Below, one piece after another: positions 17,905 through 59,796 of a stretch of DNA of 64,000 bases. The DNA lies in contig JAHBYA010000005.1 in NCBI GenBank assembly GCA_019636195.1, forward strand, positions 174 through 64,173, in the 5' to 3' direction. The translations under genes were made by a program, and so were the position numbers. The stretch's first letter is position 1, and each line of letters starts with the position of its first letter. Below the pieces are notes generated by a model. It did no database searches, was not told where the DNA came from, and saw nothing but the letters and a program-made list of their open reading frames with translations. This DNA is from Planctomycetota bacterium (GTDB lineage Bacteria > Planctomycetota > UBA8742 > UBA2392).

Positions 17905-18117
17905 ATGCCCGTATTCGATATCCAGTGCCCGATCATCGACGAACCCGCCCGCATTGACTTCGGCGGCGAAGAAGTGCGCGGCGCGCTGCGCTTTCGCGGG
18001 TTCACTTGTGAACACGAAGCCGCCTGCCGGCAGGCCGGCATCAAGTGCGCGTTGTTTGACGCCGACGGCCTTGAGCCCTTTGACGCGGCGGACGCCTTCG
18101 ACTTTTTCAACGGTTAG
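17905..18117 (+). CDS. Small acidic hypothetical protein (70 aa)
   Basis: The ATG lies 2 nt after the priA stop. Third-position GC bias is consistent with coding. No recognisable motif was seen. Confidence 0.4.
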   Translation: MPVFDIQCPIIDEPARIDFGGEEVRGALRFRGFTCEHEAACRQAGIKCALFDADGLEPFDAADAFDFFNG

Positions 18118-19901
18118 TGGTTCGTCGCGAACTCGGTGCTGCACACCAGCGCGTAAAACAGGTCTTCGTATGCCGCGGACTCGGGCTCGTTGCCCGCTGT
18201 TACCGACTTGATGTGCTCCTTGGCGCGCTTGAGTTCTTCAGCTGTCGGTTTGCGCGACAGCACACTCAAGTACAGCGCCTCCACGCGCGAGTCCACAGTG
18301 CTGAAATCGCGCATCACCGCGTACACCGTGCTGCCGTTGGTGCTGCCGCTCAGGCGCCGCGTCACGTCGCCGTTCAGCATCAGCAGCGCCTGGTCAATCG
18401 ACTGCGTGAACCCCTCGCTCAACGCCATTTCGTCGTCCTGCGCCAGCGCGGCATACTGCGCCGCCAGCGCACGCCGCAGCCGCCACTTCGGCCGCATACC
18501 GTCGATGCGGCCCATGTAGCGCTTCAGCAGGTCGTCGTCGAACTTCGTGTTGTTTTCAGGCTCCTGCCCGTTCTTCCTCTGCATCTCCAGAAACGCCGCG
18601 AACTGGCTTAATCGGTGGTATGCGCTGGGGTGCTGGCGCGCAAAACTCTTCAGCAGCGCGTCGCCATCCTCAAGGCTGAACAACGTCCCGAACAACTGCT
18701 CGGGCGTCAATTGCCGCACCGGCGCCGCCGCGAAGTGCCACAACTCGGACTTCTCCGGCTTGCCCGCGCTCGAAAGCTGATACGTCCGCGAGTTCAGTAT
18801 TCCGCGGTACAGCCGCTTCACGTCCCAGCCGTGCTTCACGAAGTCCGCAGCCAGCGCGTCCAGCAGCTTCGGGTGGCTGGCCTCGTTCAGGCTGTTGAAG
18901 TCATCCACCGGGTTCAAAAGCCCGATCCCGAACAGGAAGCTCCAGTGGCGGTTGACCACATACCGCGCCGTGGTCGGGTGTTTCGCGCTTACCAGCCAGT
19001 TGGCGAGCGCGCGGCGCCACACCTTGGGGTCGCGCGTTTTCAGCGCCTTGTCGCCCGGCAACTGCGGCGTGTTGTAGCGCATCAGGTCGTCAAGCCGCCC
19101 GCGATACTCGGCGGGAATGTCTTCTTTCAGCGTCTTGAGGTACGCAGCCAGCTGGTCCGCGGGCGGCACGTCCTTGGTCTCAATGCGCGGGTCAATCGGC
19201 TGGACGTAGAAGTCCGCCTGTATCTCGATCGGCGCGAAGAAGGCCGCCACGCCCGTGAACGCAGCCTGCGTCCACGCCGGGTCGTACGGATGGTCATGGC
19301 ACTCGGCGCACTGGATCTGCACGCCCGAAAAGTGCTTGCTGGTCACGCCCGCCGCGTCGGCTGTGCGAACCGGAAAGCCCGCCAGCCCGTAGTACGCCGC
19401 CGCCGGGTGTTCGCTGATGCGGCCCTCGGCGGTGATCATCGCCAGCGCGATTGCGTCAAAGCCTGCGCCCGCGTTGAAGCGCTCGGCCAGCCAGCCGGCC
19501 AGCACGTCGTTGGCAGAGTGCGCGAGCTCGCCCAGTTCGTCGTTGCCGCGCTCGCGGAACACGGGCATCCAGCGGTCGGCCAGGTGCTCACCGAAGCGCG
19601 GGTCAGCCAGCAGCCTGTCGATCAGGGCCGCGCGCTTGCCCGGCGCGTCGTCACCGAGAAAGGCCAGCGTTTCGGCGCGAGTCGGGGGCTCGCCGACGAC
19701 GTCGAGATACACGCGCCGCACGAACTCGCTGTCGCTGCCGGTTGGCGCGGGCGTAAGGCCATCGCGCTTGTGGACCGCGGCAACTTCGCGGTCAATCAGC
19801 GCCGAAACGCCCTCCGGCGCCTGCCCCCGCGCGGGCCAGCCAAGCCAGCCGGCCGCCGAAAGCACAGCCAGCGCCGCAAACAATGCGCACACCCGGTTCA
19901 T
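18114..19901 (-). CDS. DUF1549/DUF1553 domain protein (planctomycete-type)
   Basis: Has a signal peptide, the IQCAECHDHPYDPW motif typical of DUF1549, and a long C-terminal DUF1553-like region. Total length is 595 aa. Confidence 0.8.
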   Translation of the reverse strand: MNRVCALFAALAVLSAAGWLGWPARGQAPEGVSALIDREVAAVHKRDGLTPAPTGSDSEFVRRVYLDVVGEPPTRAETLAFLGDDAPGKRAALIDRLLADPRFGEHLADRWMPVFRERGNDELGELAHSANDVLAGWLAERFNAGAGFDAIALAMITAEGRISEHPAAAYYGLAGFPVRTADAAGVTSKHFSGVQIQCAECHDHPYDPAWTQAAFTGVAAFFAPIEIQADFYVQPIDPRIETKDVPPADQLAAYLKTLKEDIPAEYRGRLDDLMRYNTPQLPGDKALKTRDPKVWRRALANWLVSAKHPTTARYVVNRHWSFLFGIGLLNPVDDFNSLNEASHPKLLDALAADFVKHGWDVKRLYRGILNSRTYQLSSAGKPEKSELWHFAAAPVRQLTPEQLFGTLFSLEDGDALLKSFARQHPSAYHRLSQFAAFLEMQRKNGQEPENNTKFDDDLLKRYMGRIDGMRPKWRLRRALAAQYAALAQDDEMALSEGFTQSIDQALLMLNGDVTRRLSGSTNGSTVYAVMRDFSTVDSRVEALYLSVLSRKPTAEELKRAKEHIKSVTAGNEPESAAYEDLFYALVCSTEFATNH

Positions 19902-41827: not shown

Positions 41828-43303
41828 CTAACCCTTCTCGGCGTAGTTGCCGTGGTTCTGTTCAGCGAGCTTGCGCATCAGGTCTTTGTTGGCGTCTTTG
41901 CCCAAGGCAATGCCATGGATGACCACCTTGCGGAACGTGTTGATGCGGCTGATGTCGGCCAGGATGTTGTCAGGCTCACAGAAACGCCCGTTGCCGATGG
42001 CGCCCCACTTGGGGTCCACCCGCGCGTAGTCGGTGCTTTCGTCGCACCAGCTGGGGCTGCCGTCGGTGAGAAAGAAGATTGTGTCCACGCCTTCCAGCAT
42101 GGCTGTGCGGTCAAGCGACGGATCGTCCTTCACGGTGCCCTTGCGCACGATCTTGAAGGCGCGAGTCAGGCTGCCATGAATGTTGGTACCGCCATTGGCG
42201 CGCAGCGCCCGGACCGCGTCGGTCATCTTTTTCTTGTTGGCTGCGTTGGCGGGGATCAGCCCTTCGATGGCCACGTCGATCATCTGGTGCTTGGTTTCGT
42301 AGGTCACGATGTTGAAGAAAAAGTCCTCGGGCAGGTTTTCCAGGCTCCAGAGCAGCTCGACTTTTGCCAGGTCCAGCTTGGTGCGCACGCCGCTGTAGTC
42401 GGGGCCTTTGTCGCGCTGCTTGCCGGTGACCGGGCCTTTGCCGCCGCCCATTTCGGCTGGCCAATCCATGCTGCCGGAAATGTCGATCACGAACAGCACA
42501 CGTTTGCCGACGGCGACAGTGTCAAAAAACGTCGGCGCCGCGACGGACTTGCCCTGCTGTTCGTCGGCGTCGCCCTTGAGGATCCAGTTGCGCCACCAGC
42601 GGCCGTCAAGGTAGGCAGGCTTGCCGGTGATGCGCGACAGGCCCAGCGCCGCAAAGTACTGGATGCGGTCGTCCTGCGACTTTTCCAGCACGTTGATCAG
42701 CGCCATCAGGTACGGCTTTTGCGCGTCCATGCCGTCCTTGGGGCACAGCTTGCGGGCGGCGGTGAGGGCCGACAGCGTCTCAAACACGTTGCCTTTGTCG
42801 TCGGTGTACGACTCAAGGATCGGCAGCACCAGCGGCGCAAGCTCAATGCGGCCTGACTCGCCGATTGCTTCAAGGGCGCAGGACGCAAGGCTGACTTCCT
42901 TGGCGTGGGTCCTGGTCAGGGCGGACTTCAGAAGGGCGTCGCCCTGTTCAGTCGCGCCTTCCGCGATGCCGCTAAGGGCCCAATACGCCGCGAACATTTC
43001 TTCTGACTTCTTGAAGCCGAGGATCGTGCGTTCTGCCTGTTGCAGGCCGTCCTTGTCTTTGAGTTCCTTGAACTGACGCCCGATTTCGCGGCCCGCAAAA
43101 CCGTCGCGTTCAGTGACCAGGTGCTTCAACACAGCCGCCACGGACTTCTTGTCGCCATCCTTGATCAGGCGTTTGGCGCCCTCAACGCGGTGGCTTGGTT
43201 CCTTGGCGCCTAACAGCGCAACGGATGTCGCGTTTTGCGCAGAAGCGCTGAACGCGATCAGGAAGAGCACCGGGGCGGCGAAGAGCAGTCGTCGCATGGT
43301 CAT
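41828..43303 (-). CDS. Exported HEAT-like repeat plus von Willebrand factor A domain protein
   Basis: Has a signal peptide. The MIDAS motif is VLFVIDISGSMD, followed by ..GGTNIHG.. and ..IFFLTDGSPS... Length is 491 aa. Confidence 0.8.
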   Translation of the reverse strand: MTMRRLLFAAPVLFLIAFSASAQNATSVALLGAKEPSHRVEGAKRLIKDGDKKSVAAVLKHLVTERDGFAGREIGRQFKELKDKDGLQQAERTILGFKKSEEMFAAYWALSGIAEGATEQGDALLKSALTRTHAKEVSLASCALEAIGESGRIELAPLVLPILESYTDDKGNVFETLSALTAARKLCPKDGMDAQKPYLMALINVLEKSQDDRIQYFAALGLSRITGKPAYLDGRWWRNWILKGDADEQQGKSVAAPTFFDTVAVGKRVLFVIDISGSMDWPAEMGGGKGPVTGKQRDKGPDYSGVRTKLDLAKVELLWSLENLPEDFFFNIVTYETKHQMIDVAIEGLIPANAANKKKMTDAVRALRANGGTNIHGSLTRAFKIVRKGTVKDDPSLDRTAMLEGVDTIFFLTDGSPSWCDESTDYARVDPKWGAIGNGRFCEPDNILADISRINTFRKVVIHGIALGKDANKDLMRKLAEQNHGNYAEKG

Positions 43304-43391
43304 CTCCGTGGGCCTGGTTTGAGCATAGTCATTTGAAAGCGCTGTTTGTCACGCGAAAGTCAGGGCGCGGCAGTTTTTTCATCCATAGAAA

Positions 43392-43417
43392 CGGGGCCCG
43401 AGTGCTCTCGGGCCCCG
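43392..43417 (-). terminator. Rho-independent terminator for the 43438..44460 gene
   Basis: CGGGGCCCGAG, loop, CTCGGGCCCCG (11-bp perfect stem). On the minus strand it is followed by TTTCTATGGATGAAAAAA. Confidence 0.75.
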
Positions 43418-43437
43418 CGCAGGTCTGGTGATTCGGT

Positions 43438-44460
43438 TTACTTGCGCCGGCGGCGGACAGCCGCAAGGGCCATCAGCGCCAGCATGGCCGCCAAGCCCGC
43501 GCCGCCCGCGACGGTGCAGCCACCGCTGCCCGCGTTGGACTTTTGTGAGCCGGGGATGATGCCGTTGTCGTTGACGTGAACAATCACGTCGTCAGTGTCC
43601 ATGGCGTTGGCTGGGTCAGTGACAGTCAAGCGGAACTTGAGCGTGTCGTAGGTGGCGGGCGACGTGAAGCTGGGGGTGGCCGTGGTCTGGCCGTTCAGGG
43701 TCACGTTGCCGCCGGAGATCTGCACCCAGTAGTAGGTCAGGCTGCCGTTTTCCGGGTCGCGGCTGCCGCCGCCGTTCAGGGTGACGACGGTGTTGTAGGT
43801 CGCGCCCTGGTCAGCGCCCGCGTTTGCGATCGGGGCCTGGTTGGGGGGCGGGTTGCCGCCGCCTCCACCTCCACCGCCGCCTCCGCCGCCACCACCGCCA
43901 CCACCGCCACCGCCAGCCGGATACTGGTTCTTCCAGTTCTGGACCATGGTATTGGTGATCTGGCTGCTGGGGCCCTTGTGGATCAGCTTGCCGGTGCGGT
44001 CAAACACGAAGGCTGTCCCGTAGGAAAGGGAGCCGCTGCCAAAGTAGTAGGCCGGCACCTGGGTGGTAGCAGCATAGGGGTGTTGCATGCCCCATGACTG
44101 GCCGGTGCTGCCGATCGAGGCCTGCGTGCAGCCGTTCCAACCGATCTGGCAGACGGCGATGATCTGGAAATCAGACCCGGCGTGAGTGTTGTGAAGTGAA
44201 TTCATGTGCGGAACTCCGCTCTGGCAGATGCTTCAGCCAGGGGCCCACAACTCCAGCATTGTGATGTAGCCGGGCGCGGTGAAGTAGTTGTTCAGCTGGG
44301 TGAAACCGCTGGGGATTGGCCCCCAGCTCTGGCTGAACGTGATGTTGGCGGCCTGGCTGCCAATGGCCTGTGCCGACACGGCGGTGCTGAACAAGGTCAG
44401 CGCTGCGACAATCGCCAGACGCAGGACCAGCTTGCCGCCTGCCTGTAAGTTCCTCGACAT
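43438..44460 (-). CDS. Candidate selenoprotein: exported redoxin/TlpA-like domain (U-S-I-C), poly-Gly linker, Ig/PKD-like domain and Cys-containing C-terminal sorting tag
   Basis: ORFs 44233..44517 and 43438..44205 are in the same frame and separated only by TGA 44235..44233. The read-through product is ..ITMLELWAPG-U-SICQSGVPHMNSL.., with the TGA at the CxxC first-Cys position. SD GGAGGGGG lies 5 nt before ATG 44460. The signal peptide ends ..STAVSAQA. Confidence 0.65.
44206..44221 (-). promoter_or_regulatory. Candidate bacterial SECIS hairpin downstream of TGA 44235..44233
   Basis: The mRNA reads UGA, 11 nt, G, A, GCGG, AGUU, CCGC, A, C. The stem is GCGG/CCGC with an outer G-C pair and an A.A mismatch. 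The apical loop AGUU contains GU. Confidence 0.4.
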
Positions 44461-44573
44461 TTGAACCCCCTCCGGACCGATTTGCGAATCTGTGATGTGC
44501 CCACTGTCTGCGGGCATTAGATGCCAACGATTGTTAGATAGAAAGGTTTAAGTGTTTAGTGAATATTCATATG

Positions 44574-44589
44574 CTTGCTAAATAGCAAG
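44574..44589. promoter_or_regulatory. Palindrome in the AT-rich divergent control region
   Basis: CTTGCTA-AA-TAGCAAG has 7-bp perfect arms. It lies in the locally AT-rich 224-bp gap between the two divergent redoxin genes. Confidence 0.35.
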
Positions 44590-44684
44590 AAGCTGGCCCG
44601 GCTTGTCCCTTGGCAAGACCGGAAGGGTTGCGGCGCAGGTAAGCGCTGCAAGCGTCAATCCACACACAGTTTGGAGGGGACCGC

Positions 44685-45665
44685 GTGGCCAGAGTGCTCT
44701 TGTTTCTCGTCTTGGCGTGCGCGCCCCTGTGCGCACAGTTGCAGCTTGTCGGGCAGGACGCCCCCGACTTTCATGCCCGCACGTGCGTCAACCCCGTTGA
44801 TGCCGACACCATGGCCCAGTGCAAGGGTGGTGTTGTGCTGCTGAAATACTGGGGCCCCAAGTGAGGGCCTTGCGTGAAGGCGTTGCCTTCAAACCAGGCC
44901 ATGTGGGAGGCACACAAAGATCGGGGACTGCATATGTTCCTGATCGACTGCCAGGGCACGTCCCTTGAAGACAGCCAGAAGTACGCGGCCCAGCGCGGGC
45001 TGACCATGCCGATCGCGATTCACCTTGAGTGCGACTTCATCAAGTGGGACAACGCCGAGCGCCTGAGCCTGCCCTACAGCTATGTCGTCGGCCCCGACGG
45101 CAAGGTGGTCTGGCAAGGTCGCGGCGACGGCTACGCCGCCAAAGTTCGCGAGCAGCTTGCCCGCCTGAAGTACCCCAGCCTGCGCCGCATGGACATCGCC
45201 CCTGAACTTGTCACAGCCGCCACGCAGTTTGAAGCCGGCGAGTACGCGGCCGCCCGCGCCGGCGCCGAGAAGGTCAAGGCGGCTGCACCGAATGAAACCG
45301 CCGTCGCCGACGCCGAGCACGTGATTGCCGCGGTGGATGACCATGTGCTGAAACTGCGCCTGCGTATTGATGAGCTTAAGGCCGACCGCAAGTACCACGA
45401 GGCGATCCCGCTGCTCGAGAAGCTGGCTGGCAAGCAGTACAAGGGCCTGGAGTACGGCGACGCCGCCGGTAACGAGTTGAAAGAGCTGCGCAAGGACAAG
45501 CAGGTTCAGAAAGAGCTGAAGGCTTGGGAGCAATGGAAGTTGACCCAGGAGGCGAACAGGAAGCTCAAGACTGAAGAAGAGCGCAAGGCCGCCACCCAGA
45601 AGTTCATCAAGAAGCACGAAGGCACAGCCGCCGCCGACGAAGCGCAGGCCGGCCTTGACGGTTAG
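44685..45665 (+). CDS. Candidate selenoprotein: exported TlpA/thioredoxin-like oxidoreductase (U-G-P-C) with helical C-terminal domain
   Basis: GTG 44685 has SD GGAGGGG 5 nt upstream. The signal peptide is VARVLLFLVLACAPLCAQ. The sequence continues LVGQDAPDF...VVLLKYWGPK-TGA(44862-44864)-GPCVKALPSNQ.., in frame with the listed ORF 44874..45665. Confidence 0.7.
44866..44900 (+). promoter_or_regulatory. Candidate bacterial SECIS hairpin downstream of TGA 44862-44864
   Basis: The lower stem is GGCCU (44866-70) with AGGCC (44896-900), then a 5x5 internal loop. The upper stem is GAAGGC (44876-81) with GCCUUC (44885-90), and the apical loop is GUU. The upper stem begins 11 nt after the UGA. Confidence 0.5.
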
Positions 45666-45973
45666 TCGTGCAGCATGCGCCGGTCGCCGCGCAAGGTGCA
45701 CACTTCCATGATCAGCTCACGCATGGTGGTCGCGTAAACGCGGCCCCGCAAGCTGCCCCACACGTCGGCGGGATCGGTGCTGCCGTGCAGGGCGGCGTCG
45801 GGCGAATCAGCGTCAGCGACCTCGCGAAACTTGTCCTGCATCAGTTTCAGTGTGTGCCTGAACCGGTGCTTGGTCATGCGTGTCAGCGCGGAAACGAACA
45901 CCGTGTGAGGAGGATCTTCTTGCCGCAAGGGCGCGGCCCATGCCCCGCACTTGTCCGACGAGTGGCCAAACAA
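45662..45973 (-). CDS. Hypothetical small protein
   Basis: 103-aa ORF with a possible internal start at M 45877 (MTKHRFRHTLKLMQDKF..). Codon bias is coding-like. No motif was recognised. Confidence 0.45.
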   Translation of the reverse strand: MFGHSSDKCGAWAAPLRQEDPPHTVFVSALTRMTKHRFRHTLKLMQDKFREVADADSPDAALHGSTDPADVWGSLRGRVYATTMRELIMEVCTLRGDRRMLHD

Positions 45974-45999
45974 CTCAAACCAGCGCGCCTACGCGGGGT

Positions 46000-46494
46000 T
46001 CAGGCCGGTACTGCCCTGCGAATCAGGTGGGTCAGGGCCACCGCGCAGGCATCGGTCACGTCTTCCGGGGCCGGCGGCTTGGCAAGGCCCATTTGCAGCG
46101 CGACCATGCGTGCCACTTGCTCTTTGCTGGCGCTGCCGTTGCCGGTGACCGCCCGCTTGATCACCTTTGCGGCATACGGTGCAACTTCAAGGCCCGCGGC
46201 CCCCAGCGCCGCAAGGGCCACGCCGCGACCTTCGCCGATTGCCAGCGCGGACTTCAGGTTCTTGCCTGCAAACACTTCCTCGACCGCGGCTGCGTCCGGA
46301 GCGTGCTTGCGTGCCGCCTCATGCAGTTGTGCATAGATCTCGGCCAGCCGGGATTCGCGTGACTTGCCCGCAGGCGCGATCGAACCGCTGGCCAGCAGCC
46401 GGTAGCTGCGGCCCTGCTGTTCAACCAGCGCCCAGCCGACAACGCGGGTACCAGGATCGACGCCCAAAACGCGATAGCTAGACTGGCTCGCCAT
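46000..46494 (-). CDS. ruvC: Holliday junction resolvase RuvC
   Basis: RVLGVDPGTRVVGWALVE contains the catalytic Asp. ..EEVFAGKN.. and ..DVTDACAVAL.. are also present. Length is 164 aa. Confidence 0.9.
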   Translation of the reverse strand: MASQSSYRVLGVDPGTRVVGWALVEQQGRSYRLLASGSIAPAGKSRESRLAEIYAQLHEAARKHAPDAAAVEEVFAGKNLKSALAIGEGRGVALAALGAAGLEVAPYAAKVIKRAVTGNGSASKEQVARMVALQMGLAKPPAPEDVTDACAVALTHLIRRAVPA

Positions 46495-46861
46495 GCCGGA
46501 AAGAGTAACTGAGCCCGAGGTTGCATGGTATCGCCTGAGCCGGGGTAACGTCGCGGCGGTGGCGGCGATCAGCCTGGTGCTGGTGGTGTTGTGCGCCCTT
46601 CTGGCGTTAGGCGGCAGCGGCGCCGCGCCGCCGGATGTGAGCGATGGGTCGTTACCGCCGGTGCGAATCTACGTCAATCGGGCCTCTGCCGCTGAACTGA
46701 TGGCCCTGCCAGGCATAGGCGAACGCAAGGCAGAACGCATTGTCCGGCAACGGGAGGCCAAGCCGCTGAAGGACATGAACGAACTGGCCGCCGCGGCGGG
46801 CGGCATTCCGGCCGCACAACTTGAACGCATGCGGCCCTTCGTGTCCTTTGATACCCCTTGA
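46493..46861 (+). CDS. ComEA-like helix-hairpin-helix DNA-binding protein
   Basis: An N-terminal TM helix is followed by VNRASAAELMALPGIGERKAERIV and a second HhH-like segment. Its ATG overlaps the ruvC ATG within CATG. Confidence 0.75.
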   Translation: MPERVTEPEVAWYRLSRGNVAAVAAISLVLVVLCALLALGGSGAAPPDVSDGSLPPVRIYVNRASAAELMALPGIGERKAERIVRQREAKPLKDMNELAAAAGGIPAAQLERMRPFVSFDTP

Positions 46862-46924
46862 GTGCATGCAGCATTCGCACAGGTAGCGCGTGGCGTAGAT
46901 CACGGTGGCGCTGTGAGTTGCGTG

Positions 46925-46944
46925 CAACTTCAACCTTCAAGTTG
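46925..46944. promoter_or_regulatory. Near-perfect palindrome upstream of pckA
   Basis: CAACTTCAA-CC-TTCAAGTTG has 9-nt arms with one mismatch. It lies ~90 nt upstream of the pckA ATG. Confidence 0.3.
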
Positions 46945-47034
46945 TATGCGGCTTTACGCTCGCTACACTGCTGCCTTCCACGGAGGCTCGGTGGCCGTTG
47001 CCCCAATGCCTGGCCGTGGCTTACGAGGATTCGC

Positions 47035-48612
47035 ATGTCACTGCTGACCTCTATCGGCATTACCCGCCCTTCCACCATCCATCGCAACCTCACGGCCCCG
47101 CGCCTGATTGAAGAAGCTGTCCGCCGCGGCGAAGGCCACTTGACCCAGCACGGCGTGCTGATCGTCAACACCGGCAAGTACACCGGCCGCTCGCCCAACG
47201 ACAAGTTTACCGTCCAGGATGGCGAAACCAGCGACACCGTGTGGTGGGGCAAAGTCAATCGCCCGATCACGCCCGCCGTCTTTGACGCCATCCACAAGCA
47301 GGTGCTCGAGTACTACAACCGCCGCGACGAAGCCTTTGTGCTGGATTGCCACGCCGGCACCGACCCCGAGTATCGCCTGCCCGTGCGCATTGTCTGCGAA
47401 GCCGCCTGGCACAACCTGTTCGCGCGCAACATGTTTGTGCGGCTTAGCGACGCTGAACTTGCCGACTTCAAGCCCGCGTTTACCGTCATTCACGCCCCGT
47501 ACTTTGAAGCCAAAGGCGCGACGGACGGCTTGAACAGCGAAGCCTTTATCCTGGCCGACTTCAGCCGCAAGATTGTCCTGATCGGCGGCACCAAGTACGC
47601 CGGCGAAGTAAAGAAAAGCGTCTTCACCGTCATGAACTACCTGCTGCCTGCCCGCGGCGTGCTGCCCATGCATTGCAGCGCCAACATCGGGCCGGCAGGC
47701 GACAGCGCCCTGTTTTTCGGCCTCAGCGGCACCGGCAAAACCACCCTGTCCGCCGACCCCAAGCGCAAGCTGATCGGCGACGACGAACACGGCTGGAGCG
47801 ACAAGGGCATCTTCAACTTTGAAGGCGGATGCTACGCCAAGGTGATCAACCTCAGCGCCGAAGCCGAGCCTGAGATTTACGCGACGACGCGCCGCTTCGG
47901 CACGGTGCTTGAAAACGTGGTCTTCGACGAACACAGCCGCAGCATCGACCTTGACAGCAACAAGCTGACCGAGAACACCCGCGCCAGCTACCCCATCGAC
48001 ATGATCCCCAACTTTGAGCCCAGCGGCCGCGGGGGCCACCCCAAAAACGTCGTCTTTCTGACCTGTGACGCCTTCGGCGTGCTGCCGCCGATCAGCCGGC
48101 TTTCCGTTGAGCAGGCGCAGTACCACTTTATTTCCGGCTACACAGCCAAAGTGGCCGGCACCGAGCGCGGCGTAAAAGAGCCCAGCGCGACCTTCAGCTC
48201 ATGTTTCGGCGCGCCCTTCATGCCCCGCCACCCCGGAGTCTATGCCCGCCTGCTGGCCGACAAGCTGACCAGGCACGGCGCACAGTGCTGGCTGCTGAAC
48301 ACCGGCTGGACCGGCGGCCCCTACGGCGTGGGCAAGCGCATGAGCATCAAGCACACGCGCGCGCTGTTGAACGCGGCCCTTGAGGGCAAGCTCAACGCCG
48401 TCGAGTACGCGCACCGGCCGCTGATGAACCTGCATTATCCGGTCAAGGCGCCTGACGTGCCCGCCGAAATTCTCGACCCGCGCAACACCTGGGCCGACAA
48501 GGCGGCATACGACGAAAAGGCAAAGCACCTGGCGCAACTGTTTAAAGACAATTTTAAACAGTTCGAGGACGGCGTAAGCGAAGCCGTCCGCGCCGCCGGC
48601 CCCAAAGGTTGA
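47035..48612 (+). CDS. pckA: Phosphoenolpyruvate carboxykinase (ATP)
   Basis: The start is taken at MSLLTSIGI... (ATG 47035). TGKYTGRSPNDKF, GGTKYAGEVKKS and the kinase-1a P-loop FFGLSGTGKTTLS are present. Confidence 0.93.
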   Translation: MSLLTSIGITRPSTIHRNLTAPRLIEEAVRRGEGHLTQHGVLIVNTGKYTGRSPNDKFTVQDGETSDTVWWGKVNRPITPAVFDAIHKQVLEYYNRRDEAFVLDCHAGTDPEYRLPVRIVCEAAWHNLFARNMFVRLSDAELADFKPAFTVIHAPYFEAKGATDGLNSEAFILADFSRKIVLIGGTKYAGEVKKSVFTVMNYLLPARGVLPMHCSANIGPAGDSALFFGLSGTGKTTLSADPKRKLIGDDEHGWSDKGIFNFEGGCYAKVINLSAEAEPEIYATTRRFGTVLENVVFDEHSRSIDLDSNKLTENTRASYPIDMIPNFEPSGRGGHPKNVVFLTCDAFGVLPPISRLSVEQAQYHFISGYTAKVAGTERGVKEPSATFSSCFGAPFMPRHPGVYARLLADKLTRHGAQCWLLNTGWTGGPYGVGKRMSIKHTRALLNAALEGKLNAVEYAHRPLMNLHYPVKAPDVPAEILDPRNTWADKAAYDEKAKHLAQLFKDNFKQFEDGVSEAVRAAGPKG

Positions 48613-48680
48613 GTTCGCGGTTCGGAGTTCGGCGTTCGGAGTTGGCGCTGACTTGCCCCGAACCCCGGATTCTGAACACC
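48611..48680. repeat. Heptamer-periodic imperfect palindromic element (copy B) filling the pckA-orn intergenic space
   Basis: The left arm is GAGTTCG CGGTTCG GAGTTCG GCGTTCG GAGTTGG. The right arm is CCCCGAAC CCCGGATTCTGAAC. GTTCGG (48634-39) pairs with CCGAAC (48658-63), and imperfect pairing extends outward. The unit is the same GAGTTC type as copy A. Confidence 0.7.
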
Positions 48681-49214
48681 ATGAACGACCCAACGTTTGT
48701 CTGGATTGACCTTGAGATGACCGGCTTAAACCCGGACACCGACGTCATTCTGGAAATCGCCTGCATCATCACCGGCCCGGACCTCAAGCCGCTTGGCCAG
48801 TACCACGCCGTTATCTTTCAGCCCGAAGAAGCCCTTGAACGCATGTCGCCCTTCGTCCGCGATATGCACACTCAAAACGGCCTGCTGCCGCGTGTCAGGG
48901 CCAGCCGCACGGAACTCAAGCAAGCCGAAGCGGAAACCCTGGCGCTGGTCACAAAGCACTGCAAGCCCGGCGCGGGCGTGCTGGCCGGAAACAGCATTCA
49001 CCAGGACCGCCGCTTTCTGTACCGCTACATGCCCGCGCTGGAGGGCTTCCTGCATTACCGGCAAGTGGACGTAAGCACGCTGAAAGTGCTGCGCGAGGCG
49101 TGGTACCCCGACACGCCCAAGTTCGAGAAACCAGGCAAAGACCACACCGCGCTCGCGGACATAAAAGAAAGCATCGCCGAGCTTGCCTACTACCGCGCAC
49201 ACATGCTGCGTTAG
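48681..49214 (+). CDS. orn: Oligoribonuclease
   Basis: The start is taken at MNDPTFVWIDLEMTGLNP (DEDDh exonuclease motif I). ..AGNSIHQDRRFL.. and ..HTALADIKESI.. are also present. Confidence 0.9.
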   Translation: MNDPTFVWIDLEMTGLNPDTDVILEIACIITGPDLKPLGQYHAVIFQPEEALERMSPFVRDMHTQNGLLPRVRASRTELKQAEAETLALVTKHCKPGAGVLAGNSIHQDRRFLYRYMPALEGFLHYRQVDVSTLKVLREAWYPDTPKFEKPGKDHTALADIKESIAELAYYRAHMLR

Positions 49215-49281
49215 CCGTTTTCTTCGTGCCCTTCGCGGCCCTTCGTGGTTAAACACCAGCCGGAAAAACCGGAGACACGCC

Positions 49282-50205
49282 ATGCCCCTCGAAATTCTTG
49301 GCCGTATGTACGAAAAAGCCAACCGCGAGTACTACGCGATCGGCCAGTTCAACTTTTCCAATCTTGAGTTCCTGCAGGCCGCCGTCGAAGCCGCCGAGGA
49401 AATGAAGTCGCCCGTGATCGTCGCGCTTTCAACCGGCGCCATCAAATACGGCGGCATCAAGAACCTTGTCGCCCTTACACGCACGATGGCCGAGCAAGTC
49501 AGCGTGCCCGTGGCTTTGCACCTTGACCACGGCGAGAAAATCGACGACATCAAGCGCTGCGTCGATGCAGGGTTCACCAGCGTCATGATCGACGGCAGCC
49601 ACCACTCGCTGGACGAAAACATCGCCCTTACTCGTCAAGCCGCCGAGTACGCCCATGGCAAGGGCATCACCGTCGAGGCCGAGCTTGGCCGCCTGGGCGG
49701 CATTGAAGACGACATCAATGTCGATGAACGCGACGCCCGCCTGACCGACCCCGACGAAGCCGTGCGCTTTGTGAAAGAAAGCGGCTGTGACGCGCTTGCC
49801 GTCGCCGTGGGCACCAGCCACGGGGCCTACAAGTTCAAGGGCGAAAACCGCATCGACTTTGACCGGATTAAGACCATCAAGTCGCGCCTGGGCATACCGC
49901 TGGTGCTGCACGGGGCGAGTTCGGTGGACGCACAGTCGGTGGCCCAGATCAACGAGTACGGCGGCAAGATCGAGGGCGCCAAAGGCCTGGATGCCGAAAG
50001 CTATGCACGGGCGATCAAGAACGGCATCAACAAGGTGAACATAGACACGGATTTGAGGCTCAAGTGGACGGCTGTGCTGCGCAAGATCATGCACGACAAG
50101 CCCGGCGAGTTCGACCCGCGCAAGTTTTTGGGCCCCGCCCGCGACGCCGTAAAAGAGATCATCAAAGAAAAGATGAAGCTCCTGGGCAGCGCCGGCAAAG
50201 CATGA
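49282..50205 (+). CDS. fba: Class II fructose-bisphosphate aldolase
   Basis: The start is taken at MPLEILGRMYEKA... QFNFSNLE, VALHLDHG, GTSHGAYKF and LVLHGASS are present. Confidence 0.9.
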   Translation: MPLEILGRMYEKANREYYAIGQFNFSNLEFLQAAVEAAEEMKSPVIVALSTGAIKYGGIKNLVALTRTMAEQVSVPVALHLDHGEKIDDIKRCVDAGFTSVMIDGSHHSLDENIALTRQAAEYAHGKGITVEAELGRLGGIEDDINVDERDARLTDPDEAVRFVKESGCDALAVAVGTSHGAYKFKGENRIDFDRIKTIKSRLGIPLVLHGASSVDAQSVAQINEYGGKIEGAKGLDAESYARAIKNGINKVNIDTDLRLKWTAVLRKIMHDKPGEFDPRKFLGPARDAVKEIIKEKMKLLGSAGKA

Positions 50206-57582: not shown

Positions 57583-59796
57583 ATGCATGAACGTGCACAG
57601 GCGTTGTTGGTAATCGCGCTGCTGGTCTTGCTGGCCGTGACGGTCGCGCTTGACCCGCGGGTGCCCGGCTATCGTTCGCGCTACGACGCGCAGGCCACGC
57701 CGGCCGAAGTCATGCGCTGGCAGCGCGACCTGCTGGACTGGCGCCGCGCGCCGACATGGTCGAAGCTGCCTGCGCCGGACTTCACAGCGAGCTACGTCTT
57801 CGGCAAGTATCGCTACCGGCTGGACGTGCAGATCAGCGCCAACGAGCTGCACTACGTAAGCTGGGGCACAGACGACCAGCAGGGCGGCGGGGCTTGGTAC
57901 GCGGTGGGCCACGGCCACCGTCAGGCGGATGGCGAGTGGTTCAGTATCTGGAGTTGCCTTGACCTTTCGCGCGAGGTCAGCAACGGCGGCGGCGCATGGT
58001 TTGCCTTTTCACCAGACCGCAGGCGCATTCATGTGCGCTACTACCACGACACGCTGCCGTTCGGCGCCGACCCGATGGAGCTGGGCGAAGCGGTGATGGT
58101 GAATCTGGACGCAGGCGCCGAGCTTACCGACGAAACGACCTACGCCGACCCGCAGTGGCAGACCCGCACACCGGAAGGCCGTGTGCGCACCTACATCGAG
58201 ACGTTGCAGGTGCGCGCCGAGCTGTGGGGGCGCGTGGTGGATGAACAGGGCCGCGGCATTGCGGGCGCCGCAGTCAAGCAGCGCGCGGCTGGCCGCATTG
58301 AGGCGGTCACGGACGCGAGGGGCTTCTTTCGGCTTGAGTTGGAAGAGCTTGAGGCACTGACGTTGCTGGCCGCCGGCAAGCCCGGCTACTACAACGGGAT
58401 CGTGACGCTGGAGCAGGCGACGGCGCTGCGCGCGATCGGCCCCGGGCGCGACAAGTCCAAGGTTGCGCTGGCGACGATCACGCTGCGCCGCTACGACACC
58501 CATGACTATCGCGAGTACGCGTGGGTCGCGCCCGACCCTGACCCGGCGCCGGAGAACCACCTGAGCTGCGGCAACTGCCACCGCCGCGAGCACGAGCACT
58601 GGTCGCGCTCGCGCCATGCAAGCATGGCGGTCAATGCATGGACGCGCGCGGCCTTTGAGCGCGACGCCCGCCCGCACGCGCTGGCCGACGGCCGCACGCA
58701 GGACGACTGCACGCCCTGTCACAGCCCAAGCCTGGCCTCGACCCTTGCGCGCTTTGACCTGCAGGGCGCCACGCTGCTGGACGCCGCGGGCGTGCACTTG
58801 CGCGGCAACCACTGCGATTTGTGCCACAAGATTGAGGCTGTGCCCGACCCCGACAAGCCGGGCATGAACGGGTCGGCGCGGCTGCTGCGGCCGGACCCCA
58901 ACGACGCGCGCGTACCGGGGGGCATCAAGCGTGTGTTCGGGCCGTTGCCGGACGTGAGCTTTCTGTACATGGGGGCGGCGTACAACCCGCTGTTCAGCAC
59001 GGGTGCGCTGTGTGCGGCCTGCCACCAGGACGGCAACGCCCAGGGCACTTACCGCGAGTGGCAACGCAGCAAGTACGCCACGCCGGCGCACCTGAAGCAC
59101 TGCCAGGACTGTCACATGCCGGCCTACACGCGCGGCGAGCCCAAGTCGTTCCCCGGGCCGGACGGTCGCCCGATCATGGTCGCCAGCGGCGATCTCACCG
59201 GCGAAGAGGCGGCGGCCAACGGCGTGGCGATCGCGCGCTACAGCACGCGCTTTCGGCCCTTGAATGAGGCGCACAAGCACAGCTTTGTCGGCACAGAAGA
59301 CGCCGACTTTCTGCGCGCGGGCGTGACCATGCACGTTGAAAAGGTGCCGATTGTCGATGGCGTGCGCCTGCGTGTGACACTGACCAACGTCGGCGCCGGC
59401 CATGCGATCCCGACCGGCCACGGCTTGAAACGCTATGTGCTGTCCGTGCATGGCCGCGCGGGCGGGCAGCCGCTGGCGTTTGCCGGCGGCCTGCCCGAGT
59501 CTGAACGCGCGGGCGCCGCAGCCAGCGCCACAACCGGCGCGTTGATCGGGCGGCAGTTCAGCAGCGACTGGAGCGTGCCGTACTGGCGCGGCCAGCCGAC
59601 GCAGGACACCCGCCTGCTGCCCGACGAGCCGCAGGTATTCACGTTTGACCTGCCGGGGGCTGAGAGCGTTGAGGTGAAATTGACCATGCGCCGCGGTTCA
59701 CCGGCGCTGTTGCAGCAGCACGGCCTGGACCCCGAACGCACCGCAATTGCAGGCGCGCAGAACGACCTGGTCGTGCACACATGGCGCTCGCGCTAG
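57583..59796 (+). CDS. Pentaheme c-type cytochrome-like protein with N-terminal beta-sandwich region
   Basis: Five CxxCH motifs are present: CGNCH, CTPCH, CDLCH, CAACH and CQDCH. It has an N-terminal signal anchor. Length is 737 aa. Confidence 0.85.
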   Translation: MHERAQALLVIALLVLLAVTVALDPRVPGYRSRYDAQATPAEVMRWQRDLLDWRRAPTWSKLPAPDFTASYVFGKYRYRLDVQISANELHYVSWGTDDQQGGGAWYAVGHGHRQADGEWFSIWSCLDLSREVSNGGGAWFAFSPDRRRIHVRYYHDTLPFGADPMELGEAVMVNLDAGAELTDETTYADPQWQTRTPEGRVRTYIETLQVRAELWGRVVDEQGRGIAGAAVKQRAAGRIEAVTDARGFFRLELEELEALTLLAAGKPGYYNGIVTLEQATALRAIGPGRDKSKVALATITLRRYDTHDYREYAWVAPDPDPAPENHLSCGNCHRREHEHWSRSRHASMAVNAWTRAAFERDARPHALADGRTQDDCTPCHSPSLASTLARFDLQGATLLDAAGVHLRGNHCDLCHKIEAVPDPDKPGMNGSARLLRPDPNDARVPGGIKRVFGPLPDVSFLYMGAAYNPLFSTGALCAACHQDGNAQGTYREWQRSKYATPAHLKHCQDCHMPAYTRGEPKSFPGPDGRPIMVASGDLTGEEAAANGVAIARYSTRFRPLNEAHKHSFVGTEDADFLRAGVTMHVEKVPIVDGVRLRVTLTNVGAGHAIPTGHGLKRYVLSVHGRAGGQPLAFAGGLPESERAGAAASATTGALIGRQFSSDWSVPYWRGQPTQDTRLLPDEPQVFTFDLPGAESVEVKLTMRRGSPALLQQHGLDPERTAIAGAQNDLVVHTWRSR

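What the first reader, a model, noticed from the sequence alone, without database searches (positions are those of the whole stretch)
44685..45665. In-frame TGA at the first Cys of a thioredoxin WCGPC motif: candidate exported selenoprotein (U-G-P-C)
- Reading frame: translation from GTG 44685 (SD GGAGGGG at 44673-44679, 5-nt spacer) gives a signal peptide VARVLLFLVLACAPLCAQ. It continues LQLVGQDAPDFHARTCVNPVDADTMAQCKGGVVLLKYWGPK, then TGA (44862-44864), then GPCVKALPSNQAMWEAHKDRGLHMFLID....
- Continuity: this runs in the same frame into the 263-aa ORF listed at 44874..45665.
- Motif position: the layout is the canonical TlpA/ResA/redoxin arrangement (APDF, hydrophobic strand, W-x-x-C-G-P-C). 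The TGA sits exactly where the nucleophilic Cys belongs.
- Hairpin: directly 3' is a two-tier hairpin. The lower stem is 44866-70/44896-900. The upper stem GAAGGC/GCCUUC starts 11 nt after the UGA. The apical loop is GUU.
- Comparison: the spacing and the GU in the loop resemble the E. coli fdhF SECIS paradigm.
- Site-specific recoding: TGA is a normal stop elsewhere in this window (polA, DUF4129, antitoxin), so a global reassignment is unlikely.
- Annotation consequence: the 59-codon N-terminal part is below the ORF-track cutoff, so standard annotation would report a truncated gene.
Basis: partly seen in the sequence, partly recalled or inferred. Interest (0 to 1): 0.85.

Follow-up and report, generated by a model that had tools for sequence, protein, structure and literature searches.

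The report
Exported selenocysteine redoxin, mis-split by annotation
The in-frame TGA very probably encodes selenocysteine in the active site of an exported thioredoxin-like enzyme. It belongs to a Planctomycetota protein family that public annotation cuts in two, but it is a familiar type of selenoprotein.

Summary

- **Reading frame:** GTG 44685 to TAG 45665 is one frame with a single TGA at 44862-64. With U read as C, Pfam AhpC-TSA and Redoxin match across that codon.
- **Conservation of the TGA:** all 28 homologous genes whose DNA I read, the window included, carry TGA at this column. None has TAA, TAG or TGY there. The 41 codons upstream are under purifying selection as strong as downstream.
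- **TGA is still a stop:** nine of these genes also end in TGA.
- **Cys counterparts:** full-length two-domain homologues have CGPC or CPPC, with the first Cys aligned to the TGA.
- **Hairpin:** a hairpin sits 16-17 nt after every TGA and fits the published bacterial SECIS model. In the close subfamily it is frozen at synonymous sites. In other subfamilies the sequence differs but the structure stays. It is absent from two TGC forms.
only the upper stem is conserved. The lower tier is not.
- **Not tested:** selA, selB, selC and selD are absent from the roughly 400 kb I could read, and no whole genome was reachable.
- **Novelty:** UxxC Trx-fold selenoproteins are a well-known predicted class, so this is a new member of a known kind. 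It is unrecognised in NCBI annotation and NCBIfam.
- **Bonus:** the divergent neighbouring gene (TGA 44235-33, minus strand) is a second candidate selenoprotein.

The parts
44673..44679 (+). Shine-Dalgarno-like GGAGGGG, 5 nt before the start codon
   Evidence: Read directly.
44685..45665 (+). Complete selenoprotein CDS: GTG start, 326 codons including one UGA = Sec at codon 60, TAG stop at 45663-65
   Evidence: Translation. Pfam AhpC-TSA (40 bits, cutoff 26) and Redoxin (31.8 bits, cutoff 26.6) span residues 22-150 across the TGA. Full-length homologues align end to end.
44685..44735 (+). Probable Sec-type signal peptide, residues 1-17 (VARVLLFLVLACAPLCA | Q). The position of the cleavage site is inferred.
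   Evidence: A basic residue, a hydrophobic core and a small residue before Q are conserved in all homologues (...APAVFA|Q...). AF2 pLDDT is below 50 for residues 1-16. No signal-peptide predictor was available.
44736..44861 (+). Mature N-terminal part of the Trx fold: APDF motif, conserved Cys34 and Cys46, and the central beta strand VVLLKYW (residues 50-56)
   Evidence: Conserved at protein level with saturated synonymous change (pS 0.59-0.78, pN/pS 0.24-0.53). Strand 50-56 appears in the AF2 model.
44862..44864 (+). UGA read as selenocysteine (U60), the nucleophilic position of U-G-P-C
   Evidence: TGA at this column in 28 of 28 genes read. It aligns to the first Cys of CGPC/CPPC in full-length homologues. 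It lies just before helix 62-77 in the model, at the N-terminal cap.
44875..44891 (+). SECIS core hairpin U-GAAGGC-GUU-GCCUUC-A. Arms 44876-81 and 44885-90, apical loop 44882-84, 17 nt between UGA and loop.
   Evidence: The 6-bp stem is paired in 19 of 19 distinct sequences, with one compensatory A-U to G-C change. Codons V64, K65, A66 and L67 are invariant at synonymous sites, and P68 changes (CCT to CCC) only together with the compensatory substitution on the other arm. The hairpin meets the bSECIS model. It is absent from TGC forms.
44866..44900 (+). Lower stem (44866-70 with 44896-900). It forms in this sequence but is not conserved, so it is probably not part of the functional element.
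   Evidence: It is in the MFE structure of the window. Only 45% of cells are paired across 19 distinct homologues.
44742..45179 (+). TlpA/ResA-like thioredoxin-fold domain (residues ~20-165)
   Evidence: PDB sequence hits to ResA 4nmu (E 3e-11), 1st9 and DipZ. Foldseek top hits are ResA chains, TM 0.69-0.75 normalised by target.
45180..45662 (+). C-terminal all-alpha domain (residues 166-326, eight helices) of unknown function
   Evidence: AF2 pLDDT 94. No significant PDB fold match: best E 0.8, to TPR-like BamD/YbgF. It is homologous to the C-terminal part of NCBIfam NF041382, E 2.4e-18. It is conserved in Sec, Cys and redox-dead family members.
43438..44460 (-). Divergent neighbour and second candidate selenoprotein: signal peptide, TlpA-like domain with ...LELWAPG-U-SIC..., poly-Gly linker, PKD domain, MYXO-CTERM-type sorting tail
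   Evidence: Translation. PKD domain in Pfam. MYXO-CTERM TIGR03901 at 23.5 bits (cutoff 20), plus weak TlpA/ResA hits across the U. The same gene with TGA occurs in L002 and L025.
44233..44235 (-). In-frame TGA of the neighbouring gene (candidate Sec codon)
   Evidence: TGA is conserved in all three relatives that carry the gene.
44208..44219 (-). Hairpin GCGG-AGUU-CCGC, 17 nt after the neighbour's UGA (candidate SECIS core)
   Evidence: Core hairpin -6.5 kcal/mol. The segment is identical in all three relatives while flanking synonymous sites differ. Only three sequences, so this is weaker evidence.

Best explanation
The segment 44685-45665 is one gene for an exported, two-domain thiol:disulfide oxidoreductase whose catalytic nucleophile is selenocysteine.

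Proposed mechanism:
1. During translation, the 17-nt hairpin beginning 10-11 nt after the UGA acts as a bacterial SECIS. It recruits SelB-GTP-Sec-tRNA(Sec), so UGA 44862-64 is read as Sec instead of stop. This step is inferred from the comparative data.
2. The N-terminal signal peptide sends the chain through the Sec translocon to the periplasm, where it is cleaved after Ala17. This is inferred from sequence features.
3. The mature protein has a TlpA/ResA-type thioredoxin fold with a thioredoxin-like U-G-P-C centre. Sec60 attacks substrate disulfides and Cys63 resolves the intermediate as a selenenylsulfide.
4. A conserved eight-helix C-terminal domain probably mediates partner or substrate binding. 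This is a guess.

The reductant that recycles the enzyme and its substrates are unknown. Standard gene callers stop at the UGA and restart at GTG 44874. They therefore report a 59-aa ORF plus a 263-aa 'redoxin domain' or 'hypothetical' protein.
For: 1. One frame and one fold. Pfam AhpC-TSA and Redoxin exceed their gathering scores across the TGA. ResA and DipZ structures align over residues 21-149. The AF2 model (pLDDT 87, pTM 0.78) places strand 50-56, then U60 just before helix 62-77. Its best Foldseek hits are ResA.
2. TGA at the same column in all 28 genes read: the window, L001-L020, a tandem paralogue in L008, L025, and five divergent representatives L026-L030. These come from independent MAGs and metagenomes.
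3. The upstream 41 mature codons are under purifying selection (pN/pS 0.24-0.53 with pS 0.59-0.78), as low as or lower than downstream.
4. TGA is also the terminator of 9 of the 20 homologous genes and of many window genes.
5. Thirty-four full-length family proteins have C..C at the U and +3 columns, as CGPC or CPPC.
6. [quoted passage not shown]
7. Of 67 conserved four- or six-fold degenerate codon columns, only 3 use a single codon in all 21 sequences. All three lie in the hairpin.
8. The stem changes sequence but not structure. GAAGGC/GCCUUC becomes GAGGGC/GCCCUC, GCGGC/GCCGC, GCGUC/GACGC or AGCUGC/GCAGCU.
9. Two TGC-containing homologues lack the hairpin (-3.2 and -1.9 kcal/mol).
10. A second TGA-interrupted UxxC redoxin lies next door and is conserved in two relatives. 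This suggests the lineage decodes Sec.
11. Some Planctomycetes have complete selA/selB/selD sets (PMC4807772).
Against: - No selA, selB, selD or tRNA-Sec was found in the 64-kb window or in about 335 kb of related loci. No whole genome of this lineage could be scanned, so the decoding machinery is unverified.
- The hairpin of the window sequence taken alone is not statistically unusual (z = -1.6).
- Within the close subfamily the stem is nearly invariant, so classical covariation rests on one compensatory pair. The cross-subfamily comparison supplies the rest.
- The signal peptide, the periplasmic location and the redox role are inferred from sequence and homology only.
- There is no protein-level or selenium-labelling evidence.
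Confidence: 0.9

Rival explanations
1. The UGA is recoded, but not to selenocysteine. One route would be Cys, through a SelB-like factor and a selC-like tRNA charged with Cys. Such systems have been described for some bacteria (from my own knowledge, not checked here). Another route would be near-cognate read-through, for example with Trp.
For: The comparative data prove a recoded, hairpin-dependent UGA at a Cys-equivalent site. They do not identify the residue inserted. No Sec biosynthesis genes were seen in the sequence available.
Against: The hairpin matches the SelB-type bSECIS model. If Cys were the product, a TGC codon would do the job without recoding machinery, yet TGA is kept in 28 of 28 genes while TGC forms exist elsewhere in the family. 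Trp at the nucleophilic position of a CxxC centre would kill the activity.
Confidence: 0.05
2. There are two separate genes: a 59-aa secreted peptide ending at TGA, and an independent 263-aa protein starting at GTG 44874. This is how current annotation reads the region.
For: Gene callers produce exactly this. GCA_016712285.1 has a 62-aa and a 262-aa product, and 105 of 189 family proteins in the databases start just after the U column. A GTG or ATG is usually present at the V/M of VKALPS.
Against: The split falls in the middle of a single thioredoxin fold, between the central strand and the active-site helix. It would remove the first redox residue. Full-length Cys forms are single polypeptides. 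The stop is always TGA and always sits at the Cys column. Synonymous constraint maps to a hairpin, not to a ribosome-binding site.
Confidence: 0.02
3. The TGA is a pseudogene lesion or a sequencing or assembly error replacing TGC/TGT.
For: TGA is one substitution away from TGC or TGT. The window is a single sequence of unknown quality.
Against: The same TGA occurs in 27 other genes from independent assemblies and technologies: NCBI MAGs including long-read ones, JGI, ENA and Logan. Both flanks are under purifying selection. There are no other lesions in the frame.
Confidence: 0.01
4. TGA is a sense codon throughout this organism (a reassigned genetic code).
For: None beyond the in-frame TGA itself.
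Against: TGA ends 9 of the 20 homologous genes and many well-supported window genes, such as PEPCK at 46858-48612 and the aldolase at 49183-50205.
Confidence: 0.005

Closest known systems
Predicted bacterial UxxC selenoproteins of the Prx-like / Trx-like group. [quoted passage not shown] They were first reported from genomes and from Sargasso Sea and GOS metagenomes (PMC1088965, PMC2398784).
   Same: Thioredoxin fold. Pfam PF00578 and PF08534 hits. Sec at the first position of a UxxC redox motif, with Cys homologues. A bSECIS hairpin directly downstream.
   Different: This family adds a conserved ~160-residue all-alpha C-terminal domain and a signal peptide. It comes from Planctomycetota MAGs. 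Among the close representatives retrieved, apparent Sec forms (105) outnumber Cys forms (34), but the search profile was built from Sec forms, so the ratio is biased. I could not compare sequences with the exemplar accessions in the review. Identity with one of those listed families is therefore neither shown nor excluded.
ResA / TlpA / CcmG-type extracytoplasmic thiol-disulfide reductases (Cys enzymes; PDB 4nmu, 1st9, 1su9; the DipZ C-terminal domain 2hyx)
   Same: Fold, active-site position, a reducing-type xGPC/xxPC motif, and extracytoplasmic targeting.
   Different: Sec replaces the nucleophilic Cys. Sequence identity is only 19-24%. The score against the NCBIfam ResA model is 55.7 bits against a cutoff of 170, so it is not a ResA orthologue. 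It has an extra C-terminal helical domain. No cytochrome c maturation or CcdA/DsbD gene was seen among the roughly 30 window ORFs I scanned.
NCBIfam NF041382, 'VPGUxxT family thioredoxin-like (seleno)protein, type 1' (related to 'hypothetical protein OS_HP5' in PMC13188914)
   Same: Two-domain layout. The C-terminal helical domain is homologous: residues 173-322 match profile positions 193-345, E 2.4e-18. It is also a selenoprotein family.
   Different: The whole-protein score is 66.5 bits against a cutoff of 350. The N-terminal domain does not match. The motif is WGxxUGPC, not VPGUxxT. It is not a member.
E. coli fdhF SECIS and the consensus bSECIS model
   Same: A short hairpin in the coding sequence starting about 11 nt after the UGA, with G-U in a small apical loop. 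All four constraints of the consensus model are met.
   Different: A 3-nt loop and a perfect 6-7 bp stem. It lacks the bulged U of the fdhF element (that detail is from my own knowledge). Binding to SelB is untested.

Membership tests
Bacterial selenoprotein gene (UGA = Sec, SECIS/SelB-dependent) | In-frame UGA conserved in homologues from other organisms | tested here: met
   TGA at the same column in 28 of 28 genes read; never TAA, TAG or TGY.
Bacterial selenoprotein gene (UGA = Sec, SECIS/SelB-dependent) | Cys-containing homologues align Cys to the UGA, with conserved flanks on both sides in one frame | tested here: met
   Thirty-four family proteins have C..C at the U and +3 columns. Upstream pN/pS is 0.24-0.53.
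Bacterial selenoprotein gene (UGA = Sec, SECIS/SelB-dependent) | bSECIS model: apical loop 3-9 nt with G in its first two positions, upper stem 4-16 bp, 16-37 nt from the UGA, MFE <= -7.5 kcal/mol (PMC13188914, Fig. 2) | tested here: met
   Window: loop GUU, 7-bp stem, 17-nt spacing, -9.1 kcal/mol. All 28 genes: 6-8 bp, 16-17 nt, -7.7 to -14.8 kcal/mol. Structure is conserved with different sequences, synonymous sites are frozen, and the hairpin is absent in TGC forms.
Bacterial selenoprotein gene (UGA = Sec, SECIS/SelB-dependent) | The genome encodes selA, selB, selD and tRNA-Sec (selC) | not testable with these tools
   None is present in the window or in 20 related loci, about 400 kb in all. 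Other Planctomycetes do have full sets (PMC4807772).
Bacterial selenoprotein gene (UGA = Sec, SECIS/SelB-dependent) | Selenium is incorporated into the protein | not testable with these tools
   Needs 75Se labelling or mass spectrometry.
TlpA/ResA-like redoxins (Pfam AhpC-TSA PF00578, Redoxin PF08534) | Pfam score above the gathering threshold | tested here: met
   AhpC-TSA 40 bits (cutoff 26) and Redoxin 31.8 bits (cutoff 26.6), with U read as C.
TlpA/ResA-like redoxins (Pfam AhpC-TSA PF00578, Redoxin PF08534) | Thioredoxin fold with the xxxC redox pair at the N-terminus of helix alpha-1 | tested here: met
   AF2 pLDDT 87. Strand 50-56, U60 and C63 at the start of helix 62-77. Foldseek matches ResA at E 7e-8, TM 0.69-0.75 by target.
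ResA orthologue (NCBIfam NF002854) | Score above the curated cutoff | tested here: not met
   55.7 bits against a cutoff of 170.
VPGUxxT family thioredoxin-like selenoprotein, type 1 (NCBIfam NF041382) | Score above the cutoff and a VPGUxxT motif | tested here: not met
   66.5 bits against 350. Only the C-terminal domain matches. The motif is WGPKUGPC.
Peroxiredoxin (Prx) selenoprotein | PxxxTxxU/C peroxidatic motif | tested here: not met
   The sequence around U60 is KYWGPKUGPC: UxxC, with no Thr three residues before U.

The most novel reading that the evidence does not exclude
This is not just one more Sec-for-Cys variant. It would be part of a selenium-dependent extracytoplasmic redox module specific to a Planctomycetota lineage, with three features:
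- An exported two-domain redoxin family in which Sec forms are the rule rather than the exception, often in two paralogues per genome.
- A minimal 17-nt SECIS held nearly invariant across about 50% protein divergence.
- In some genomes, divergent pairing with a second, cell-surface-sorted (MYXO-CTERM, PKD) selenoprotein.
Probability: 0.2. Interest if true: 0.55.

Novelty: new member of a known kind. Interest (0 to 1): 0.4.

Why it matters
- **Annotation fix:** it corrects a systematic error. The five distinct copies checked for which gene calls were shown are split into a ~60-aa ORF and a ~260-aa fragment that lacks the catalytic residue. Public databases name the fragments 'redoxin domain-containing' or 'hypothetical'.
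- **Size of the problem:** about 105 of the 189 family proteins retrieved start just after the Sec column and so appear to be such truncated calls.
- **Selenium use in Planctomycetota:** it adds a well-supported exported selenoprotein family to a phylum whose selenium use is little described. It also implies that these wastewater, soil and groundwater lineages need selenium.
- **A useful test set:** the clean Sec, Cys and redox-dead triads in one architecture suit comparative questions about why Sec is retained.
- **What it does not do:** it does not change how Sec decoding is understood.

Tried and rejected
- **Sec machinery:** ARAGORN on the window and 20 loci found no tRNA-Sec. Rfam at gathering thresholds found only a tRNA-Asn. 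Pfam scans of about 30 window ORFs found no SelA, SelB or SelD. Six-frame motif scans of about 400 kb for the SelA PLP site, the SelD N-terminus and GHVDHGKT found nothing. This is uninformative because the genomes are 3-4 Mb or more.
- **Why I stopped there:** a database search with an E. coli SelA, SelB or SelD query was considered and dropped. Planctomycetal hits would rank far below thousands of proteobacterial ones.
- **Source of the window:** an exact-sequence look-up of the 263-aa product found no record.
- **GC3 screen for other TGA-interrupted genes:** too noisy in this high-GC DNA. It recovered only the target, the neighbour and a tandem paralogue at L008:8877.
- **Lower stem of the hairpin:** tested and rejected as a conserved feature.
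- **Fold of the C-terminal domain:** no significant PDB match.
- **Neighbour's family:** only one database protein was found, so wide conservation could not be tested.
- **Promoter and terminator scan of 43300-46100:** nothing above shuffled expectation.
- **Metagenome scan:** one true family member (L020) plus three distant ones that were not used.
Full report
**1. The observation**

- GGAGGGG lies at 44673-79, followed by a 5-nt spacer and GTG at 44685.
- The frame runs ...VVLLKYWGPK, then TGA (44862-64), then GPCVKALPS..., to TAG at 45663-65.
- The ORF track splits this into a 59-aa ORF (44685..44864) and a 263-aa ORF (44874..45665).
- The hairpin UGAAGGC-GUU-GCCUUCA (44875-91) and a lower stem (44866-70/44896-900) are in the MFE structure of 44862-44910, at -19.8 kcal/mol.
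- On its own this fold is not remarkable (z = -1.6; 12 of 200 shuffles fold as well).

**2. One gene, one fold**

With U replaced by C, Pfam AhpC-TSA (40 bits, cutoff 26) and Redoxin (31.8 bits, cutoff 26.6) match residues 22-150, straight across the TGA. PDB sequences of ResA (4nmu, 1st9) and DipZ align over residues 21-149.

An AlphaFold2 model (pLDDT 87, pTM 0.78) shows three things:
- a disordered residue 1-16 segment, consistent with a signal peptide;
- strand 50-56;
- position 60 and Cys63 at the N-terminal end of helix 62-77, which is the classical CxxC location.

Foldseek's best hits are ResA chains (E 7e-8, TM 0.69-0.75 normalised by target). The TGA therefore cuts a single thioredoxin fold between its central strand and its active-site helix.

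**3. Comparative evidence**

A search of 5.8 billion proteins found 37 close homologues. All were about 262 aa long and began at M/V-KALPS, just after the TGA. I then fetched DNA from several sources:
- 19 loci from Planctomycetota MAGs plus one metagenome locus;
- a 92%-identical Logan contig;
- five divergent representatives.

Every one of the 28 genes, counting the window and a tandem paralogue in L008, has TGA at the same column. Each is preceded in frame by a signal peptide and the conserved segment APxF...C.N.P....CxGxVxLIKxWGxx.

Further points:
- Two genomes carry two paralogues each, all with TGA: L002 and L017 lie on one 4.1-Mb contig, and L001 and L014 come from one MAG.
- The 41 mature codons upstream have pN/pS 0.24-0.53 at pS 0.59-0.78, which is as constrained as the downstream domains.
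- Nine of the 20 homologous genes end in TGA, and so do many window genes. TGA is therefore still a stop in these organisms.

**4. Sec/Cys pairs**

A profile search of 1.84 billion representatives gave 102 hits at E <= 1e-30. I classified 189 family proteins:
- 105 start just after the U column. These are presumably Sec forms truncated by gene callers, which DNA confirmed for all five divergent representatives sampled; the 23 close-homologue genes read all carry the TGA as well.
- 34 cover the column with C..C (CGPC or CPPC).
- About 20 have degenerate, redox-dead sites.
- 29 are fragments.

In alignment A4 the TGA aligns with the first Cys of eleven full-length homologues that share the two-domain architecture. 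The Sec-to-Cys ratio is biased, because the profile was built from Sec forms.

**5. The SECIS**

The published consensus requires four things (PMC13188914): a 3-9 nt apical loop with G in its first two positions, a 4-16 bp upper stem, 16-37 nt between UGA and loop, and MFE <= -7.5 kcal/mol.

All 28 genes comply. Stems are 6-8 bp, loops are GUU, AGUU, AGGU or CGUGCC, spacing is 16-17 nt, and dG runs from -7.7 to -14.8 kcal/mol.

Within the close subfamily:
- The 6-bp stem is paired in 19 of 19 distinct sequences. It shows one compensatory A-U to G-C change (L012, L020) and one G-U.
- Of 67 conserved four- or six-fold degenerate codon columns, only three use a single codon in all 21 sequences: V64 GTG, A66 GCG and L67 TTG. 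All three lie in the hairpin.
- K65 is always AAG when it is Lys. P68 is CCT, except CCC where the compensatory change occurs.

In other subfamilies the stem is GCGGC/GCCGC, GCGUC/GACGC or AGCUGC/GCAGCU at the same place. Two homologues with TGC at the active site have no such hairpin (-3.2 and -1.9 kcal/mol).

**6. What could not be shown**

- No tRNA-Sec, SelA, SelB or SelD is encoded in the window or in the roughly 335 kb of related loci.
- Whole genomes could not be scanned.
- Complete Sec-insertion gene sets are documented in other Planctomycetes (PMC4807772), so the trait exists in the phylum.
- The identity of the inserted residue, the export and the redox function are all inferences.

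**7. Mechanism proposed**

SelB with Sec-tRNA(Sec) binds the 17-nt hairpin and decodes UGA 44862-64. The chain is exported through the Sec translocon and cleaved after Ala17.

In the periplasm the U-G-P-C centre acts as a reducing, thioredoxin-like selenol/thiol pair. Sec60 is the nucleophile and Cys63 the resolving residue. The lower pKa of the selenol (5.2 against 8.3 for a thiol; PMC13188914) would keep it reactive.

Conserved Cys34 and Cys46 may form a structural disulfide (inference).

The C-terminal domain has eight helices and is modelled at pLDDT 94. It has no significant solved relative; the best match is E 0.8 to TPR-like BamD/YbgF. It is shared with NCBIfam NF041382, the VPGUxxT selenoprotein family, at E 2.4e-18. 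It persists in redox-dead members, which suggests a binding or scaffolding role.

**8. Comparison with what is known**

UxxC selenoproteins with AhpC-TSA, Redoxin or TlpA-like domains have been predicted since 2005. They are among the most abundant bacterial selenoprotein classes. By Pfam domain and motif this gene belongs to that kind.

It is not any of the following:
- a ResA orthologue (55.7 bits against a cutoff of 170);
- a member of the VPGUxxT family (66.5 bits against 350);
- a peroxiredoxin (no PxxxTxxU motif).

No NCBIfam model reaches its cutoff, and NCBI names the fragments 'redoxin domain-containing' or 'hypothetical'. My verdict is a new, well-supported member or subfamily of a known kind.

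**9. The neighbour**

The divergent gene on the minus strand runs from 44460 to 43438. It reads signal peptide ...LELWAPG-TGA-SICQSGVPH..., then a poly-Gly linker, a PKD domain and a MYXO-CTERM-type tail.

The same gene, with TGA and an identical GCGG-AGUU-CCGC hairpin 17 nt downstream, occurs in L002 and L025. Annotation splits it as well. Only one database protein was found for this family.

It is a second candidate selenoprotein. It also supports Sec decoding in this lineage.

Noticed in passing
window 43438-44460, minus strand (TGA 44235-44233; hairpin 44219-44208): The divergent neighbouring gene is a second candidate selenoprotein. It has a signal peptide, a TlpA-like domain with ...LELWAPG-U-SIC..., a run of 22 Gly, a PKD domain and a MYXO-CTERM-type sorting tail. 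The TGA and a GCGG-AGUU-CCGC hairpin 17 nt downstream are conserved in L002 and L025. Gene callers split it (94 aa + 255 aa in the ORF track). The family is very small: one protein among 5.8 billion.
   Followed up: partly
L008 8877 and 9989; L002 and L017 (same 4.1-Mb contig); L001 and L014 (same MAG): Several genomes carry two paralogues of the target family. L008 has them in tandem about 1.1 kb apart. All have the in-frame TGA and the same hairpin.
   Followed up: partly
proteins P0065, P0079, P0081, P0099, P0103, P0122, P0127, P0134, P0043: Full-length family members with the same two-domain architecture have lost both redox residues (for example WxxRD..S/T at the U..C columns). They may be redox-dead paralogues kept for a non-catalytic role of the fold or of the C-terminal domain.
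   Followed up: no
window 43799-43864 region, minus strand (within the neighbouring gene): An uninterrupted run of 22 glycine codons forms the linker. In L025 it is replaced by GGGGGGTGGGGTGGGGTGGGGT, and in L002 by a short GGPGGG. The linker is therefore a variable low-complexity stretch, and may be prone to assembly error.
   Followed up: no
window 41828-50205 compared with L001, L002 and L025: Gene order is conserved with two Planctomycetota MAGs and one Logan contig: VWA protein, [neighbour selenoprotein], target, variable insert, RuvC, HHH protein, PEPCK, RNase T, class II aldolase. L001 lacks the neighbour selenoprotein. The stretch between the target and RuvC differs in each genome (L002: Proton_antipo_M; L025: a protein with a faint SQHop_cyclase_C hit).
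   Followed up: partly
window 18114-19901, minus strand: This ORF carries the PSCyt2/PSD1 (DUF1549/DUF1553) domain pair. From my own knowledge these domains are typical of Planctomycetes, which fits the taxonomy of the related loci.
   Followed up: no
window 57583-59796, plus strand: A 737-aa ORF has weak multi-haem cytochrome c matches (MtrC/MtrF-like, cytochrome c7 and c554), two of the three at or just above Pfam thresholds. It could be a substrate class for a periplasmic ResA-like reductase, but no link was tested.
   Followed up: no
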